A stretch of 64,000 nt of DNA from the NCBI RefSeq assembly GCF_003019035.1, contig NZ_CP027447.1; one strand, written 5' to 3'. The stretch is from Escherichia coli. GTDB taxonomy: Bacteria; Pseudomonadota; Gammaproteobacteria; Enterobacterales; Enterobacteriaceae. How positions within the stretch are numbered: position 1 is the first letter of the stretch; each line of letters begins with the position of its first letter. Below, in pieces: positions 39,001-51,000 of this stretch. The position numbers are program-made.

Positions 39001-42000
39001 GTGTCTGACGGAACAGGAACAAAGCAAATTAGTCACTCTTGCCGAACGTTTTTTACAGCAAAAGCGGCTTGTTCCTTTACAGGGCTTTGAACTGGATTCA
39101 TTAAGAAGCTGCCGGATAGCACTTCTATTTTGCCTACCCGTTCTGGAGTTAGGACTGGAATGGCTGGATGGTTTTCATGAAGTCTTAATTTATCCTGCGC
39201 CATTTGTGGTCGATGACGAATGGGAAGACGATATCGGTCTGGTGCATAACCAACGTATTGTTCAGTCAGGTCAGAGCTGGCAGCAAGGGCCTATCGTTTT
39301 GAACTGGTTGGATATACAAGATTCTTTTGATGCTTCTGGTTTTAACCTGATTATTCATGAAGTCGCTCATAAGCTGGACACCCGTAACGGCGATCGCGCC
39401 AGCGGAGTTCCCTTTATTCCGTTGCGTGAGGTTGCTGGCTGGGAACACGATCTTCATGCTGCAATGAACAACATTCAGGAAGAAATCGAATTGGTTGGCG
39501 AGAATGCGGCGAGCATTGATGCTTATGCTGCCAGTGATCCTGCTGAATGTTTTGCCGTACTTTCTGAATATTTCTTTAGCGCCCCAGAACTTTTTGCTCC
39601 TCGTTTCCCTTCATTGTGGCAACGTTTCTGCCAATTTTATCAACAAGATCCTTTGCAGAGACTGCATCACGCTAATGATACAGACTCGTTTTCGGCGACG
39701 AATGTTCATTAATTAACAACTTTGCAGATTAATTAACCAATTGAAATGACTTATGAAATTTAGTGTTGACAGACAAGGTACCGCTAAGTAATATGCGCCC
39801 CGTTCACACGATTCCTCTGTAGTTCAGTCGGTAGAACGGCGGACTGTTAATCCGTATGTCACTGGTTCGAGTCCAGTCAGAGGAGCCAAATTCAAGTTTT
39901 CATGCTTATCCATACGTCTCTATATGTTTACGATTCAGTAAGTTAGCGTGAAAATCCTTCCCGATGCGTATCTGGTTTTCTCTCCGCATCGGGATAATTT
40001 GGTGGTCAGATCTGGGGTCAGTTTGGTTCGATTCTGGAGTGACCCCCAAATGTCTTTAAACGATTCTAAAATCCGCACGTTAAAACCTTCTTCCCGTCCG
40101 GTAAAACTCTCCGACTCTCACGGTCTGTATCTGCTCGTCAATCCGGGCGGTTCACGCATCTGGTATCTCAAATATCGTTTCAACGGAAAAGAATCCAGAG
40201 TCAGTCTTGGCGCATACCCGCTGGTCTCACTGGCAGAAGCCAGGCAGCAGCGCGACGGTATCCGTAAGCTGCTGGCGCAGAATATCAACCCGGCGCAACA
40301 GCGCATGGCAGAGAAAACTGCCTGCTCTCCTGAAAAGTGCTTTAAGGCGGTGGCGCTGGCCTGGCACAAAACCAACAAAAAATGGTCGGCTGATTATGCT
40401 GCACGTATTCTCGCCAGCATGGAAAATCATATCTTCCCGGCGATTGGTCATCTGCCCGTTGCCACTCTTAAAACGCAGGATTTCACTGCTTTGTTGCGGG
40501 TTATCGAGGATAAAGGCTTTCTGGAAGTCGCGTCCCGAACACGGCAGCAACTCAGCAACATCATGCGCTATGCCGTTCAGCAGGGACTTACCGACAGTAA
40601 CCCAGCGCAGCATCTGGATGGCGTTGTCGCCTCCCCCGTAAAAAATCACTACCCCGCTTTACCGCTGGAGCGATTGCCTGAACTGCTTGACCGCATTGGC
40701 GACTACCGGCAGGGCCGGGAGTTAACCCGGCTGGCGGTGGTGCTGACGCTGCACCTGTTCATCCGCTCCAGCGAACTGCGTTTCGCCCGCTGGAGCGAGA
40801 TCGATTTCAGGCACAAAATCTGGACCATCCCCGCCACCCGCGAAGCCATCGACAAAGTACGGTTTTCCGATCGTGGCGCCAAAATGCGTAGTCCGCATAT
40901 CGTGCCGCTCTCCCGCCAGGCCATTGCCATTCTGAAACAGATACAGGAACTTTCCGGTCATCTGGATCTGGTGTTTCCCGGTGATCATAACCCGTACAAG
41001 CCAATGAGTGAAAACACCACCAACCGGGCGCTGCGCCTGATGGGGTATGATACGAAAACTGAAATCTGCGGACATGGACTCAGGGCGATGGCCTGTAGCG
41101 CCCTGGTGGAGTCAGATCTCTGGTCACGCGATACGGTGGAGCGGCAAATGAGCCACCAGGAGCGCAACAGCGTGCGTGCGGCATATGTGCATAAGGCGGA
41201 GCATCTGGAGGCCAGAAAAGCCATGATGCAGTGGTGGTCGGATTATCTGGATGTGTGCCGTGAGGGGTATATTGCGCCGTATATTTATGCCCGGCAGCAT
41301 AAGGCGGCCTGAATCAGAAATAACGTAAATCATTAAAAATGTAAAAGCAGATCCTGATTGACCGGGATCTGCTTTTTTGTATTGAGAGGTATTGCCGTTG
41401 TTTTTTATTATTATCAATCAGAAAGTATCTAAAATTATTTGGCCCCAAATAATTTTGGGTGAAAACCAATCAATAAACCACTTATCAATAGGTAAGTACC
41501 GGAAATTTTTCCGGTAGAATATTTTCAGGCGATTGCCTATTAATAAATACATTATTGATAGATAACTACCTTCTGTGATTTGCCCGCAAATCACAGAAGA
41601 TGAAAAACTATCAATACGTGATATTTTCACGGAAATACCAATTAATACTCCAGAATATCTCCTGACCATATACTCTGAAGCCTGTAAGAACTGCATCAGA
41701 TATTCAGAGACCAGATGGATATAAGTCTGAACTTATTTGGTTTCCAATAAGTTCAGGCGAAAACCTATCAATTCATCTGTTTTCAACAGGCAGCCACCTT
41801 CCATGATTAACATGTTAATCATGGAAGGTGAAAAGCTATCAATAATCGATATTCCCACGGAATTACCAATTAATACATCCCAAAAAAACGCGCCATAAAA
41901 TACCGGATAATCTGCTATCTGCGCCAGCATCCCGCCGCTCTACCTGTTCAGGACTGCGCCAGTTTCTGGCCCTTTGATTTTTGGCCCTTTCCGGTCAGGC

Positions 42001-48000: not shown

Positions 48001-51000
48001 GACAGCCTGCCACCGGTGGAGTGGCTGACGTATGGCAGCGGTTATCTTGCGGGAATGAAGCTGGGCGGAACGCCGCTGCTGGAGTACACGCGCGACAGGC
48101 TGCACCGCGAGACGGTACGCAGCTTCGGCGATAATGCATACGAACTGACCAGCACATACACCCCCGCAGGGCAGTTACAGAGCCAGCGCCTGAACAGCCT
48201 GGTGTATGACCGTGACTACAGCTGGAATGACAATGGCGACCTGGTGCGCATCAGCAGCCCGCGACAGACGCGGGAATATGGCTACAGCGCCACGGGCAGA
48301 CTGGCGAGCGTTCACACCCTCGCACCAGACCTGGACATCCTCATCCCGTATGCCTCCGACCCGGCGGGAAACCGCCTGCCGGACCCGGAACTGCACCCGG
48401 ACAGTACACTCACGGCGTGGCCGGATAACCGAATCACCGAAGACGCGCACTACCTGTACCGCTATGACAGGTATGGCAGGCTGACGGAGAAGACGGACCG
48501 CATCCCGACGGGGGTGATACGGACGAACGACGAGCGCACCCACCACTACCACTACGACAGTCAGCACCGGCTGGTGTTTTATACGCGGATACAGCATGAG
48601 GAGCCACTGGTCGAGAGCCGCTATCTCTACGACCCGCTGGGCCGCCGGACGGGGAAACGGGTGTGGCGTCGCGAGCGTGACCTGACGGGATGGATGTCGC
48701 TGTCGCGTAAACCGGAGGTGACATGGTACGGCTGGGACGGCGACCGGCTGACAACGATACAGACCGACACCACACGTATCCAGACGGTATACCAGCCGGG
48801 AAGCTTCACGCCACTTATCCGTATCGAAACAGAGAATGGTGAGCTGCATAAAGCGCAGCGGCGCAGTCTGGCGGAGAAGTTGCAGCAGGAAGGAAGCGGG
48901 GACGGTCACGGCGTGGTGTTCCCGACTGAGCTGGTGCGGCTGCTGGACAGGCTGGAGGAGGAAATCCGGGCAGACCGCGTGAGCAGTGAAAGCCATGCGT
49001 GGCTGGCACAGTGCGGGCTGACGGTGGAACAACTGACAACACAGGTAGAACCGGAGTACACACCGGCACGCTCACTGCATCTGTATCACTGTGACCACCG
49101 TGGACTGCCGCTGGCGCTCATCAGCGAAGACGGCAATACGGCGTGGAGCACGGAATATGACGAGTGGGGAAACCAGCTTAACGAGGAGAACCCGCATCAT
49201 CTGTACCAGCCATACCGCCTGCCGGGGCAACAGTGCGATGAGGAGTCGGGACTGTACTATAACCGTCACCGATACTATGATCCGTTACAGGGACGGTATA
49301 TCACCCAGGACCCAATCGGGCTGGAGGGGGGATGGAATTTATACCAGTATCCATTAAATCCTGTTATTGATACCGATCCGCTGGGTTTGTGGGTTTGTGG
49401 GTTTTTGCGCTTCCAGCTATAGTTGAAGGCGTTAACTGGTTCTTAGTCGCCAGTGCGGCTGCGGGTGGCGCGGTTTTAGCGACTCCAAGTGATTCTCAGC
49501 AAACTAAAAAGAAAACAGAGAGCCTAACAAACTGTCCAACAATACCCCCCGAAGATCCATGTGATAAAAAAATTGATGACAGGTTATTAAAAAAAATGGA
49601 CATATCTGATCCCCATCAAGTGAAAAAAGATTGGATGGGCGACGGAGCTAAAATATCAAGGTTTGATCTATGTGGTTGTAAAGATGGTAGAGTGGTGATT
49701 AAGACTAAGGATCTTAATGCTAAAACCAAGGAATGCAAAGGAAACATTGCATCTCCTACTGAATATAACTGGAAATAATTTATGAAACTAACTGTTGAGT
49801 TACATGGTATAGACCCTGCGAAGGGTGAGTGGTTCAGTATATCAAAACATAAGTCTGATAATTACGATCATGATCTTTTATTATATATTATTAATAAAGT
49901 CTTAGATGAAGGTGCTGAATATAGTAGCAATGGGCTTGAAGGATTAAGGGCTCTTCATGTTGAATTATCAGTTGCAGTTATTGCTGATGAAGATGGTTTC
50001 AGACCTGCATTTGACCTTGATGCGCGAACAATCAGCAGACTTAGCGCCGCGGGCGCTTCTTTTGATTTCGACCCATATGTATAACTGGCAGAAGTAATAG
50101 TTTAGCGTAAAAAAACAAATGAAAAATACTTTGCTTATAAACAAAATCATTCGAGGTGCATCAAGGTGGTAAGTTTTCAATCCCTTGGGAGCATAGCTAA
50201 CTATGTGACCAAGAGTTTGAAAACGCAGCCAACATAGAGGTAAGGTGTTGTCGGCCTACGGCCTCCGCATAAAGGACTTTATACCCGCCCCGTAGAGGAA
50301 GATCGGACACAATTAATGGAGCAATTAATGCCAGCGTGTGGAGCGGGTGCTATGATGATCGGGCGCAAAAACGCACGTCGGGAAATGTAAGTTAACAGTT
50401 AGCGCACCGTTATCTTACATTGAACGCCAGCAGCAATTCACTCATGCTTGGCTTACTCTTAGGCAGTATGTATACAATAAATCTTAACCCGGTGTCGCTT
50501 GAACAAAAGGTGGTCATTCTGGTGGTCTTGACAAACTCAATTTTTAGGTTTAGCTTACCAATCAGCCAGTTAATGGCTACGGCGATCCCAGTCAGAGGAG
50601 CCAAATTCTAAAAATTTCGCTTGTATCGTGCAATGCAACTCATCTACATTAAGCATTGATTCTTTAACGAAGAGCGGGTTTGTCATCTTAAGCGCCCTCG
50701 ACCTTTATGGTTGGGGTCGTTTTGTTATGGACGCCGTCTACAGCTTTCCTGTCGAGAGTGAGAAGTTACGGTCATTTTTGTGCCACATAACCTTCTGCTG
50801 GCAAAGAGTTCAGCACTATCTTCTCTACTCCGTCCCTATATTCGTCACCATTGCCCCCTCGATTATAAAACTTGAGTAATTCAGTAGTCTCCCCTCTTGC
50901 AACTCACACCCAAAACTGCCTAACGAAAAGTTATTAATTTTCAATCATATTGCTATCAGGATTTATATTTTTTCGCTGTGCTAGAAAGGGCGCATTTATG

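What the first reader, a model, noticed from the sequence alone, without database searches (positions are those of the whole stretch)
39873..50608. 10.7 kb island at tRNA-Asn asnT bounded by 21-bp direct repeats
Seen: CCAGTCAGAGGAGCCAAATTC forms the 3' end of asnT (39873-39893) and recurs at 50588-50608, with a P4-type integrase immediately after the tRNA. Cargo is a second recombinase-like gene, a Ner-like regulator, an unknown gene and a PAAR-Rhs toxin/immunity module. Established knowledge: asnT is the site of the Yersinia high-pathogenicity island in many E. coli; here a different cargo occupies it.
Basis: partly seen in the sequence, partly recalled or inferred. Interest (0 to 1): 0.5.

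Follow-up and report, generated by a model that had tools for sequence, protein, structure and literature searches.

The report
Small Rhs-carrying island at asnT
A 10.7-kb mobile-type DNA island sits in the E. coli asnT tRNA gene, the site the yersiniabactin island usually occupies; it is an ordinary island of a common family, and its toxin gene is broken by an 8-base duplication.

Summary
CCAGTCAGAGGAGCCAAATTC occurs exactly twice, at 39873-39893 (the 3' end of tRNA-Asn) and at 50588-50608. K-12 carries one copy, and its flanks join precisely as the empty site.

The island is a site-specifically integrated element. Its intact P4-type integrase is 71% identical in protein to the HPI integrase and lies at the same offset from asnT. 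GGTGGTC-type motifs lie near both ends.

About 9% of complete E. coli genomes carry this integrase lineage, at asnT or asnU. Cargo varies: Rhs genes with different toxin tips, or T6SS genes.

- The Rhs gene is split exactly at the DPLGL core/toxin junction by an 8-bp tandem duplication. An otherwise identical intact allele exists at the same site in a near-identical strain.
- The "unknown gene + Ner" pair lies behind a P1-type C4 antisense RNA. Its two recognition loops covary with targets at the unknown gene's ribosome-binding site in 14 related modules.
- The second recombinase gene is preceded by an EFASI RNA.

This backbone recurs in tRNA-Phe islands of Serratia, Klebsiella, Salmonella and Erwinia.

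Verdict: real and ordinary, a new member of a known kind. Excision was not shown.

The parts
39813..39888 (+). tRNA-Asn (GTT), asnT; integration target
   Evidence: ARAGORN; Rfam tRNA 72.6 bits; mtfA-asnT-yeeJ context as in K-12
39873..39893 (+). attL core: 21-bp direct repeat (16 nt of the tRNA 3' end + AATTC)
   Evidence: single copy in the K-12 empty site
39894..40049 (+). Left arm of the island. It holds the candidate integrase arm-type sites TTTGGTGGTCAGATCTGGGGTCAG (GGTGGTC at 40001, GGGGTCA at 40014), just before the int start codon.
   Evidence: Conserved in family members and in HPI; motif positions. The binding function is inferred.
40050..41312 (+). P4-type tyrosine integrase, 420 aa, intact
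   Evidence: Pfam Arm-DNA-bind_3, Phage_int_M, Phage_integrase; 71% aa identity to the HPI integrase at the same offset; RefSeq start
41313..42627 (.). Conserved AT-rich non-coding spacer. It contains the int terminator (41343-41376) and two ~130-bp paralogous units with long palindromes (41568-41601 and 41796-41829). Function unknown.
   Evidence: 37-40% GC; repeats; 91% conserved across the family, with symmetric changes in both palindrome arms; no Rfam match at or above a family's gathering score
42628..43512 (-). Second tyrosine-recombinase-like gene (Integrase_1 family), 294 aa. Catalytic-type motifs are present by inspection: GLRSQE, GTKGGRPR, HSLRY, LGHGDG, VYGY.
   Evidence: Pfam PF12835 at 201 bits and PF12834 at 139 bits. 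No solved relative by sequence. The motif reading is by eye, using general knowledge of tyrosine recombinases.
43569..43697 (-). EFASI RNA motif, ending 56 nt before the start codon of the Integrase_1 gene
   Evidence: Rfam RF02957, 97.4 bits against a gathering score of 51.2, full length. It occupies the same place before the recombinase gene in 8 related modules.
44411..44665 (-). Ner/SfsB-like HTH_35 regulator, 84 aa; its start overlaps the stop of the 153-aa gene by 4 bp
   Evidence: Pfam PF13693 at 110 bits; NCBIfam SfsB 115.6 bits, below the cut-off of 150; PHROG transcriptional repressor
44662..45123 (-). 153-aa protein of unknown function (p153), first gene of the C4-controlled operon; predicted four-helix bundle
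45136..45174 (-). a2/b2-type targets of the C4 RNA: b2 GAUUAGCCUC at 45165-45174, and a2 CUCACUG at 45136-45142, abutting the GGAG ribosome-binding site of p153
   Evidence: covariation with the C4 loops in 14 modules
45177..45264 (-). C4-type antisense RNA
   Evidence: Rfam RF01695, 69.3 bits against 45, full length; loop/target covariation
45284..45361 (-). Leader with a1/b1 targets (c4-a1b1 / isrK-like)
   Evidence: RF03163 at 42.7 bits against 46.7, and RF01394 at 47.8 against 50: both full length but just below threshold here. Both are above threshold in relatives. Pairing with the C4 loops is 100% across 14 modules.
45643..49422 (+). Rhs core gene, 1259 codons as it stands; it ends 10 codons after DPLGL because of a frameshift
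   Evidence: NCBIfam RHS_core NF041261 at 2601 bits; Pfam RHS_repeat, DUF6531, RHS
49382..49397 (+). Two copies of TGGGTTTG where the intact allele has one: an 8-bp tandem duplication that shifts the frame at the core/toxin junction
   Evidence: Sequence and translations. Alignment to the E. albertii contig L007, which lacks the extra 8 bp. The repaired 1375-aa protein exists verbatim in L018.
49398..49778 (+). Toxin tip, now out of frame with the core (annotated as a 129-aa ORF from GTG 49389). It is Ntox33-like and carries DPHQVK, which fits the [DN]xHxxK motif.
   Evidence: Pfam Ntox33 E=0.0069, below the cut-off. Only 15 relatives among 5.8 billion proteins, one of them with PF15533. Motif from PMC3482391.
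49782..50084 (+). Putative immunity gene, 100 aa, with weak DUF4279 similarity
   Evidence: Pfam DUF4279 E=0.015. The same Ntox33/DUF4279 pairing is reported for a Salmonella SPI-19 Rhs (PMC13304343).
50480..50587 (+). Conserved right end of the island, with the candidate arm-type sites AAAAGGTGGTCATTCTGGTGGTCTTGAC (50505-50532)
   Evidence: Conserved in all family members whatever the cargo. The last 86 bp match in 170 genomes, while the toxin/immunity region matches only one.
50588..50608 (+). attR core: second copy of the 21-bp repeat
   Evidence: Homology to the E. albertii copy of the island stops exactly here.

Best explanation
This is a small (10,715-bp) genomic island that entered the 3' end of asnT by integrase-mediated site-specific recombination.

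What is shown:
- The 21-bp core was duplicated as attL and attR.
- The intact P4-type integrase gene next to attL belongs to the same lineage as the HPI integrase.
- Conserved motifs lie near both ends and are candidate arm-type binding sites.
- The island has three blocks. The first is the integrase plus a conserved AT-rich spacer. The second is a regulatory and recombinase backbone read on the minus strand: leader with a1/b1, C4 antisense RNA, a2/b2 at the ribosome-binding site, p153, Ner-like regulator, EFASI RNA, and the Integrase_1 recombinase gene. The third is exchangeable cargo, here an Rhs polymorphic toxin with an Ntox33-like tip and a DUF4279-like immunity gene.
- In this lineage the Rhs gene has been inactivated by an 8-bp slippage duplication at the DPLGL junction. 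The core can no longer carry its toxin, while the immunity gene remains.

What is inferred from sequence, covariation and homology to P1/P7 c4:
- The C4-type RNA pairs through two loops with targets flanking the p153 ribosome-binding site.
- This pairing holds the p153-Ner operon off.

What is not shown:
- That the GGTGGTC-type motifs bind the integrase.
- That the island can still excise.
- What p153, the Ner-like protein and the second recombinase do.
For: Boundaries:
- The repeat is exact and no match is expected by chance.
- K-12 is the precise empty site.
- An E. albertii contig carries the same toxin, immunity gene and right end at about 99% identity. Homology stops exactly after the repeat, next to a different flank.

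Integrase:
- The domains are complete.
- It is 71% identical in protein, and about 72.5% in DNA, to the HPI integrase at the same offset from asnT.
- GGTGGTC-type motifs occur near both ends and are conserved across the family. The left one is also conserved in HPI.

Family:
- The same backbone occurs at asnT with other cargo. In O145 the cargo is tssG, tssF, vgrG and a PAAR gene. In APEC O78 and OkiPb01705 it is Rhs with another tip.
- It occurs at asnU in strain 2014C-4423.
- It occurs at a second tRNA-Asn in E. albertii, and in a tandem array with a hybrid att site in E. whittamii.

Rhs inactivation:
- The frames and the duplication are visible in the sequence.
- The intact junction is seen in L007.
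- The exact repaired 1375-aa protein is encoded at the same site in L018, which is 99.92% identical over 19 kb.
- The truncated product is indexed in 89 blocks of the assembly collection and counted on 82 contigs.

C4 switch:
- Rfam hits.
- 98.5% and 100% of cells are paired, and 10 and 11 of 14 pairs show changes on both sides. Slid controls give 23-44% paired.
- The a2 target abuts the GGAG site of p153.
Against: - Excision or a circular form was not observed. An attP-junction pattern found nothing in JGI metagenome contigs.
- No excisionase-like gene was recognised.
- Many family members in E. coli have an integrase pseudogene, so the family often behaves as a fixed relic.
- The arm-site assignment rests on conservation and position only.
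- The a1b1 and isrK matches in this window fall just below the Rfam gathering scores.
- No function could be assigned to p153, and no fold match was found for the toxin.
Confidence: 0.85

Rival explanations
1. The island is now an immobile relic. It was integrated once, and it spreads among Escherichia strains by homologous recombination of the flanking chromosome, as proposed for HPI in E. coli, not by its own integrase.
For: Integrase pseudogenes in APEC O78, OkiPb01705 and N767. No recognisable excisionase. No attP junction in metagenome contigs. HPI in E. coli has mostly lost attR (10.1101/2025.09.17.676721).
Against: In this window the integrase is intact, both 21-bp cores are perfect, and both conserved ends are present. 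Related or near-identical copies sit at different tRNA-Asn genes with exact boundaries at the core: asnT, asnU, and a tRNA-Asn gene in E. albertii. E. whittamii has a tandem array with a hybrid att site. These patterns are what site-specific integration produces.
Confidence: 0.3
2. It is the stripped remnant of a P4-like satellite prophage. It kept the integrase and the RNA-based immunity region, lost replication and capsid-redirecting genes, and later acquired Rhs.
For: P4-type integrase. An immunity-style antisense RNA of the C4 family with upstream and downstream targets. Relatives of p153 lie next to, or are fused with, Ash-family (PF10554) sequences in other islands.
Against: No primase/helicase, sid/psu/delta-like, packaging or AlpA-type gene was found in any library. 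The same compact backbone, without such genes, is conserved in nine other loci across several genera. That argues for a stable design and not for independent decay.
Confidence: 0.12
3. It is a member of the EARL (ROD21-like) family of tRNA-Asn islands, or a remnant of HPI.
For: The target is the same: the 3' end of tRNA-Asn genes. It has a P4-like integrase and direct repeats (PMC6035254). The integrase is related to the HPI integrase.
Against: EARL islands are 19-41 kb, have 24-37-bp repeats, and carry type IV pilin, MobA/TraD and an excisionase near the far end. None of these is present here. No ybt genes are present, and the integrase is only 71% identical to the HPI integrase.
Confidence: 0.03

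Closest known systems
High-pathogenicity island (HPI, yersiniabactin) of Yersinia and E. coli
   Same: Same target (3' end of tRNA-Asn genes, asnT in E. coli). The integrase gene sits at the same offset after the tRNA. The integrases are 71% identical in protein. The GGTGGTCA/GGGGTCA motif upstream of int is shared.
   Different: No ybt/irp genes. The island is 10.7 kb instead of 30-40 kb. Both att cores are retained, whereas most E. coli HPI copies are reported to have lost attR. It has its own backbone (C4, p153, Ner, EFASI, Integrase_1) and Rhs cargo.
EARL / ROD21-like tRNA-Asn islands (PMC6035254)
   Same: tRNA-Asn integration, P4-like integrase, direct repeats, occasional tandem insertion into the att site of another island (compare).
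   Different: None of the conserved EARL genes is present (type IV pilin, MobA/MobL relaxase, TraD, RDF, H-NS homologues). The repeats are shorter (21 bp against 24-37 bp) and the island is half the minimum EARL size.
Rhs polymorphic toxin loci, in particular the Rhs-Ntox33/DUF4279 pair of Salmonella SPI-19 (PMC13304343)
   Same: RHS_core protein ending in PxxxxDPxGL, followed by a small AT-rich toxin tip and an immunity gene. The tip is Ntox33-like and the immunity gene DUF4279-like.
   Different: Here the locus rides on an integrase-bearing tRNA island instead of sitting in a T6SS cluster. The toxin is out of frame because of an 8-bp duplication.
Phage P1/P7 immI c4 antisense RNA, and Salmonella Gifsy-1 IsrK (PMC4825925)
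   Same: Order is leader with a1/b1, then C4 RNA, then a2/b2 at a ribosome-binding site, then the operon. Two recognition loops vary between elements while staying complementary to their targets.
   Different: The controlled genes are not icd/ant or orf45/anrP. They are an unassigned four-helix-bundle protein and a Ner-like regulator. The setting is a small non-phage island.

Membership tests
tRNA-integrated genomic island with P4-type integrase | Inserted at the 3' end of a tRNA gene, which stays intact | tested here: met
   tRNA-Asn 39813-39888 is intact; the island starts 5 nt after it
tRNA-integrated genomic island with P4-type integrase | Flanked by direct repeats that are a single copy in the empty site | tested here: met
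   21-bp repeat; one copy in K-12, with the flanks joining exactly
tRNA-integrated genomic island with P4-type integrase | Tyrosine integrase gene adjacent to the tRNA-proximal end | tested here: met
   420-aa integrase with Arm-DNA-bind_3, Phage_int_M and Phage_integrase domains at 40050-41312
tRNA-integrated genomic island with P4-type integrase | Present in some strains and absent in others; composition differs from the chromosome | tested here: met
   95 of 5426 complete genomes hold at least 80% of the region. GC ranges from 35% to 63% within the island.
tRNA-integrated genomic island with P4-type integrase | Excision to a circle and re-integration | not testable with these tools
   Only an indirect attempt was possible: the attP-junction pattern found nothing in JGI metagenome contigs
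HPI | Yersiniabactin (ybt/irp/fyuA) gene cluster | tested here: not met
   No such genes between the repeats; compare ybtS/X/Q after int in ST131
EARL / ROD21-like islands | Type IV pilin genes, MobA/MobL relaxase and TraD, and an RDF near the far att site | tested here: not met
   None among the ORFs or family matches; features as listed in PMC6035254
Rhs polymorphic toxin | YD-repeat core ending in PxxxxDPxGL | tested here: met
   NF041261 at 2601 bits; the core ends ...[11 protein letters not shown]
Rhs polymorphic toxin | C-terminal toxin domain translated in frame with the core | tested here: not met
   The 8-bp duplication shifts the frame and a stop follows 10 codons after DPLGL. The feature is met in the allele of L018 and in L007.
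Rhs polymorphic toxin | Cognate immunity gene immediately downstream | tested here: inconclusive
   A 100-aa ORF starts 4 bp after the toxin stop. It matches DUF4279 only at E=0.015. The pairing mirrors the Salmonella Ntox33/DUF4279 pair.
Rhs polymorphic toxin | N-terminal PAAR domain for loading on VgrG | tested here: inconclusive
   The PAARQGD motif is present, but PF05488 scores 14.5 bits against a cut-off of 27, E=0.042
C4 antisense RNA (P1 immI type) | Match to the RNA family above the curated score | tested here: met
   RF01695, 69.3 bits against 45, full length
C4 antisense RNA (P1 immI type) | Two loops complementary to targets upstream (a1/b1) and at the downstream ribosome-binding site (a2/b2) | tested here: met
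   7-10-nt complements at fixed distances. Covariation across 14 modules: 98.5-100% of cells paired, 10-11 of 14 pairs compensatory, slid controls 23-44%.
C4 antisense RNA (P1 immI type) | Controls icd/ant-type antirepressor genes | tested here: not met
   The downstream genes are p153 (no family match) and an HTH_35 Ner-like protein
EFASI RNA | Match above the curated score, upstream of an integrase gene | tested here: met
   97.4 bits against 51.2; ends 56 nt before the Integrase_1 start; same position in 8 related modules
EFASI RNA | STAXI motif a few hundred bp upstream | tested here: not met
   No STAXI match up to E=5 in 43400-45700. STAXI is present in one E. whittamii module.
P4-like satellite prophage | Alpha primase/helicase, sid/psu/delta and cos | tested here: not met
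   No matches in Pfam, NCBIfam or PHROGs

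The most novel reading that the evidence does not exclude
The middle of the island is a self-contained, undescribed chassis: a1/b1 leader, C4 RNA, a2/b2, p153, Ner-like regulator, EFASI RNA and Integrase_1 recombinase. It is shared by small islands at tRNA-Asn in Escherichia and at tRNA-Phe in Serratia, Klebsiella, Cedecea, Pseudocitrobacter, Salmonella arizonae and Erwinia. These islands carry different conflict cargo: Rhs toxins, T6SS parts, NACHT-like and Schlafen-like genes. The C4 loops come in at least six b-type and seven a-type specificities, like heteroimmune phages. 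On this reading the RNA sets island-specific immunity that decides when p153, Ner and perhaps the second recombinase are made, and so when an island activates or tolerates a related one. It would also give a biological setting to the orphan EFASI motif, as a leader of this recombinase gene.
Probability: 0.35. Interest if true: 0.55.

Novelty: new member of a known kind. Interest (0 to 1): 0.3.

Why it matters
On its own this is a routine accessory island, so it changes little. Four points are of modest use.

- asnT in E. coli has a second common occupant. Its integrase is a close relative of the HPI integrase, so the two must compete for the same site. This is relevant to HPI epidemiology.
- The island gives a dated, natural example of an Rhs effector switched off by an 8-bp slippage exactly at the core/toxin junction, while its immunity gene is kept.
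- A near-identical copy of the toxin, immunity gene and right end in E. albertii, and identical island proteins in both species, document recent exchange between them.
- The conserved C4/EFASI backbone links Rfam motifs of unknown role to a defined gene set. It offers a tractable system for testing RNA-based immunity in non-phage islands.

Tried and rejected
- **Integrase_1.** No sequence relative among solved structures.
- **attP circle.** The exact junction pattern found nothing in JGI metagenome contigs. This is not informative about excision.
- **Excisionase.** No candidate among small ORFs at the right end or elsewhere.
- **STAXI.** Absent from this window.
- **Whole-RNA duplex energies.** C4 against its flanks was uninformative for the upstream target: 20% of shuffles scored as well. 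I replaced this test with explicit loop/target covariation.
- **EARL and HPI membership.** Considered and rejected on gene content.
- **Literature.** I found no paper describing an Rhs island at asnT.
- **Window identity.** I first took the window to be strain SCU-301. It is 100% identical to SCU-301 across the island, but it differs upstream of serU. It is 100% identical over 19.8 kb to assembly GCA_031388365.1.

Full report
**Observation**

The 21-mer CCAGTCAGAGGAGCCAAATTC occurs exactly twice in the window, at 39873-39893 and 50588-50608. No other match appears with up to two mismatches, and none appeared in 100 shuffles. ARAGORN places tRNA-Asn(GTT) at 39813-39888. The first copy is therefore the last 16 nt of the tRNA plus AATTC. 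Imperfect similarity extends to 26 nt.

The flanking genes are mtfA and a yeeJ-type adhesin gene. In K-12 MG1655 the asnT-yeeJ interval holds one copy of the 21-mer. Its left side matches the window's attL side and its right side matches the attR side.

**Source of the window**

The island and its near flanks (39000-51500) are 100% identical to E. coli SCU-301, NZ_CP051751.1. Upstream of serU the window carries a lambdoid prophage end (exonuclease-domain gene, DUF4224, integrase at 37654-38679), where SCU-301 has zinT. The window is 100% identical over 19.8 kb to assembly GCA_031388365.1 (L022). It therefore comes from a close relative of SCU-301.

**Anatomy**

Reading from attL:
- A 156-bp left arm.
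- An intact 420-aa P4-type integrase gene at 40050-41312 (Arm-DNA-bind_3, Phage_int_M, Phage_integrase).
- Its terminator, followed by a 1.3-kb AT-rich non-coding spacer.
- On the minus strand, a 294-aa Integrase_1/Phage_int_SAM_2 protein gene at 42628-43512.
- An EFASI RNA at 43569-43697, scoring 97.4 bits against a gathering score of 51.2.
- A Ner/SfsB-like HTH_35 gene at 44411-44665.
- A 153-aa gene with no family match (p153) at 44662-45123.
- A C4 antisense RNA at 45177-45264, scoring 69.3 bits against 45.
- A leader at 45284-45361 that matches c4-a1b1 and isrK just below threshold.
- On the plus strand, an RHS_core gene at 45643-49422 (2601 bits).
- A 129-codon ORF at 49389-49778.
- A 100-codon ORF at 49782-50084.
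- About 500 bp of non-coding DNA ending in a conserved right arm, then attR.

GC content runs from 35% at the toxin tip to 63% in the Rhs core.

**The Rhs gene is broken**

The core reading frame ends ...[18 protein letters not shown] second frame reads [13 protein letters not shown]... through to the toxin end. The DNA reads CTGGGTTTGTGGGTTTGTGGGTTTTTG: the unit TGGGTTTG occurs twice, followed by TGGGTTTT.

A public E. albertii contig (L007) was identified by exact matches of its amn and shiA proteins. It carries the same toxin, immunity gene and right end at about 99% identity, but with one unit fewer, giving [11 protein letters not shown] in frame.

Deleting 8 bp in silico gives a 1375-aa protein. 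Exactly that protein is encoded at the same mtfA-asnT-yeeJ site in assembly GCA_903974165.1, which is 99.92% identical to the window over 19 kb. The truncated 1259-aa product is indexed in 89 blocks of the assembly collection and counted on 82 contigs.

The frameshift is therefore a real mutation shared by many assemblies, of the kind replication slippage produces. It is not an assembly error. The Rhs core can no longer deliver its tip, while the putative immunity gene is untouched.

**The toxin and immunity pair**

The tip is rare. Only 15 relatives were found among 5.8 billion proteins, mostly Salmonella Rhs tips, and one of them carries PF15533 Ntox33. Pfam gives Ntox33 at E=0.0069 for the tip and DUF4279 at E=0.015 for the immunity ORF. 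Both scores are below the curated cut-offs.

The sequence DPHQVK fits the Ntox33 motif [DN]xHxxK (PMC3482391). A Salmonella SPI-19 Rhs-Ntox33/DUF4279 pair has been described, with RNA as its predicted target (PMC13304343). A structure model found no fold match.

Pfam PAAR_motif reaches only 14.5 bits against a cut-off of 27. 'PAAR' is therefore a motif-level statement.

**Integration machinery**

The HPI integrase of an ST131 strain lies at the same offset after asnT. It is 71% identical in protein and about 72.5% in DNA.

The left arm carries TTTGGTGGTCAGATCTGGGGTCAG just before the int start. This motif is conserved in family members and in HPI. The right arm carries AAAAGGTGGTCAnnCTGGTGGTCTTGAC. 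It is invariant in every family member examined, whatever the cargo.

I read these as arm-type sites for the Arm-DNA-bind_3 domain. That reading is an inference from position and conservation. No excisionase-like gene was recognised.

**Family and distribution**

Among the 5426 complete E. coli genomes:
- 95 hold at least 80% of 39000-51500 at one place.
- 203 hold at least 80% of the interior 41313-45642.
- About 474 have an integrase gene at least 90% identical in DNA.
- About 1,900 more have the roughly 72%-identical HPI type.

The toxin and immunity region is unique to SCU-301 in that set, yet the last 86 bp of the island match in 170 genomes.

Members with the same ends and backbone include:
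- APEC O78 at asnT: integrase with an internal stop, HTH frameshift, Rhs frameshift.
- OkiPb01705 at asnT: intact Rhs with another tip.
- N767: a remnant with a deletion running into yeeJ.
- O145 RM8843 at asnT: cargo of tssG, tssF, vgrG and a PAAR protein, plus a HigA gene.
- 2014C-4423 at asnU: Rhs with a TPR protein.

In E. albertii NBRC 107761 the island sits at a second tRNA-Asn gene. In E. whittamii it lies in tandem behind another island, with a hybrid att site between them.

Exact copies of the Ner-like, p153 and immunity proteins occur in both E. coli and E. albertii. Together with boundaries that fall exactly at the core in different flanks, this indicates site-specific integration and recent exchange between the two species.

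**The backbone beyond Escherichia**

A search of one genome per species with the Integrase_1 protein found nine loci. In all nine loci the integrase, Integrase_1 and p153 genes keep the same order and relative orientation. The order is tRNA, int, Integrase_1 gene, EFASI, usually a Ner-like gene, p153, C4, and the isrK/a1b1 leader. Rfam was run on seven of the nine loci; it found EFASI and C4 in every module. The tRNA is tRNA-Asn in the two Escherichia species. It is tRNA-Phe, with a roughly 59%-identical integrase, in Serratia, Klebsiella indica, Cedecea, Salmonella arizonae, Erwinia and strain RIT693; no tRNA gene lies within the short Pseudocitrobacter locus.

Cargo next to the backbone differs there. 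S. arizonae has a NACHT-like 1397-aa protein and a Schlafen AlbA_2 protein. K. indica has two unassigned ~1250-aa proteins.

EFASI ends about 55-65 nt before the recombinase start in every case. That suits a leader role. Rfam's own description instead suggests a trans-acting sRNA found near integrase genes (as quoted in PMC12370729).

**The C4 switch**

On the minus strand the order is:
- a1/b1 leader;
- C4;
- GAUUAGCCUC (b2, 45165-45174);
- CUCACUG (a2, 45136-45142), abutting GGAG;
- the AUG at 45123.

The C4 loops CAGUGAG and AGGCUAA are complementary to a2 and b2, and also to a1 and b1.

In an alignment of 14 modules the loops differ. There are at least six b-type and seven a-type sequences, and the targets change with them. 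For C4 against a2/b2, 98.5% of cells are paired and 10 of 14 pairs show changes on both sides. For a1/b1 against C4 the figures are 100% and 11 of 14. Partners slid by 1-3 columns give 23-44% paired.

APEC O78, whose Ner-like gene is frameshifted, has a mismatched b2.

This is the P1/P7 c4 design, and it resembles IsrK of Gifsy-1 (PMC4825925). I therefore infer that the RNA blocks translation of p153, and with it expression of the operon. The controlled proteins are not icd/ant homologues. p153 is a confidently modelled four-helix bundle with no informative structural neighbour.

**Comparison with known systems**

The island works like HPI at the level of integration: same site and a related integrase. 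It is not HPI, because it has no ybt genes.

It is not an EARL/ROD21-like island either. Those carry type IV pilin genes, MobA/TraD and an excisionase, and have 24-37-bp repeats (PMC6035254).

It is also not a P4-like satellite in content.

I found no paper describing an Rhs island at asnT. A review of E. coli islands lists only HPI at asnT.

**Verdict**

It is an ordinary, small tRNA-linked island, a new member of a known kind. Its cargo gene is pseudogenised. Its backbone is more organised and more widely conserved than the annotation suggests.

Three things remain untested or unexplained:
- present-day excision;
- the roles of p153, the Ner-like protein and the second recombinase;
- the conserved palindromes in the AT-rich spacer.

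Noticed in passing
window 41313-42627 (palindromes 41568-41601 and 41796-41829): A 1.3-kb AT-rich non-coding spacer is about 91% conserved across the Escherichia family, about as conserved as the flanking island genes. It holds two ~130-bp paralogous units. Each has a palindrome of the form ACCTTC-NN-TGATT [8 bp] AATCA-NN-GAAGGT followed by GAAAA(A/G)CTATCAATA. Strain differences change both arms symmetrically. The units could be recombinase core sites, operators or hairpin RNAs. They are absent from the tRNA-Phe relatives.
   Followed up: partly
window 34921-38679: The end of a lambdoid prophage lies next to tRNA-Ser serU: an 823-aa exonuclease-domain protein, a DUF4224 protein and a 341-aa integrase. 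Two adjacent tRNA genes, serU and asnT, separated only by mtfA, are therefore both occupied. SCU-301, which is otherwise identical across the island, has zinT there instead.
   Followed up: partly
window 45152-45160: A third complementarity: GUGGUGGAA, between b2 and a2, can pair with the 3' strand of the C4 closing stem (UUCCACCAC). The pair changes together in relatives, for example GGUGGCGGAA with UUCCGCCACC in strain RIT693. This suggests an alternative structure or a processing signal.
   Followed up: no
window 44325-44370: A 20-bp, 90%-complementary GC-rich hairpin lies right after the Ner-like gene stop, with no T-run after it. It does not look like a canonical intrinsic terminator. In O145 a HigA gene, and in one E. 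whittamii module a STAXI RNA, occupy the stretch between the Ner-like gene and EFASI.
   Followed up: no
L007 (E. albertii, SRR30213228 contig), 1412-1427 and 4711-4726: The 4.7-kb contig is bounded by two island right ends in inverted orientation, with only amn and shiA between them. This E. albertii strain therefore seems to carry two islands of the family facing each other, with yeeJ and yeeN missing from their usual places.
   Followed up: partly
L009 (E. whittamii), 13463-20112: This is a tandem array at asnT. The first island has a 53%-identical integrase, and its C4-p153-Ner-STAXI-EFASI-Integrase_1 module points the same way as int, inverted relative to this window's layout. A hybrid att site follows, and then an island of this window's family.
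   Followed up: partly
L002 (APEC O78), C4 region 9118-9398: The b' loop (AUGCCAA) matches b1 (UUGGCAU) but not b2 (UUAGCCU). The Ner-like gene is frameshifted and the integrase has an internal stop. This looks like a decaying or recombinant switch.
   Followed up: no
L006 (E. coli 266917_2, thrW island), 8951-9736: A related C4-p153-HTH module, annotated partly as an 'ash family protein', sits in a thrW island. That island also carries an RNA-directed DNA polymerase gene and an AbiE pair. The module is therefore not restricted to tRNA-Asn and tRNA-Phe islands.
   Followed up: no
window about 54060-55355: The yeeJ-type adhesin gene contains a 689-bp internal direct repeat at 89% identity, presumably Big_1 domain repeats. 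The gene length differs between otherwise near-identical strains (2660 against 2669 aa products).
   Followed up: no
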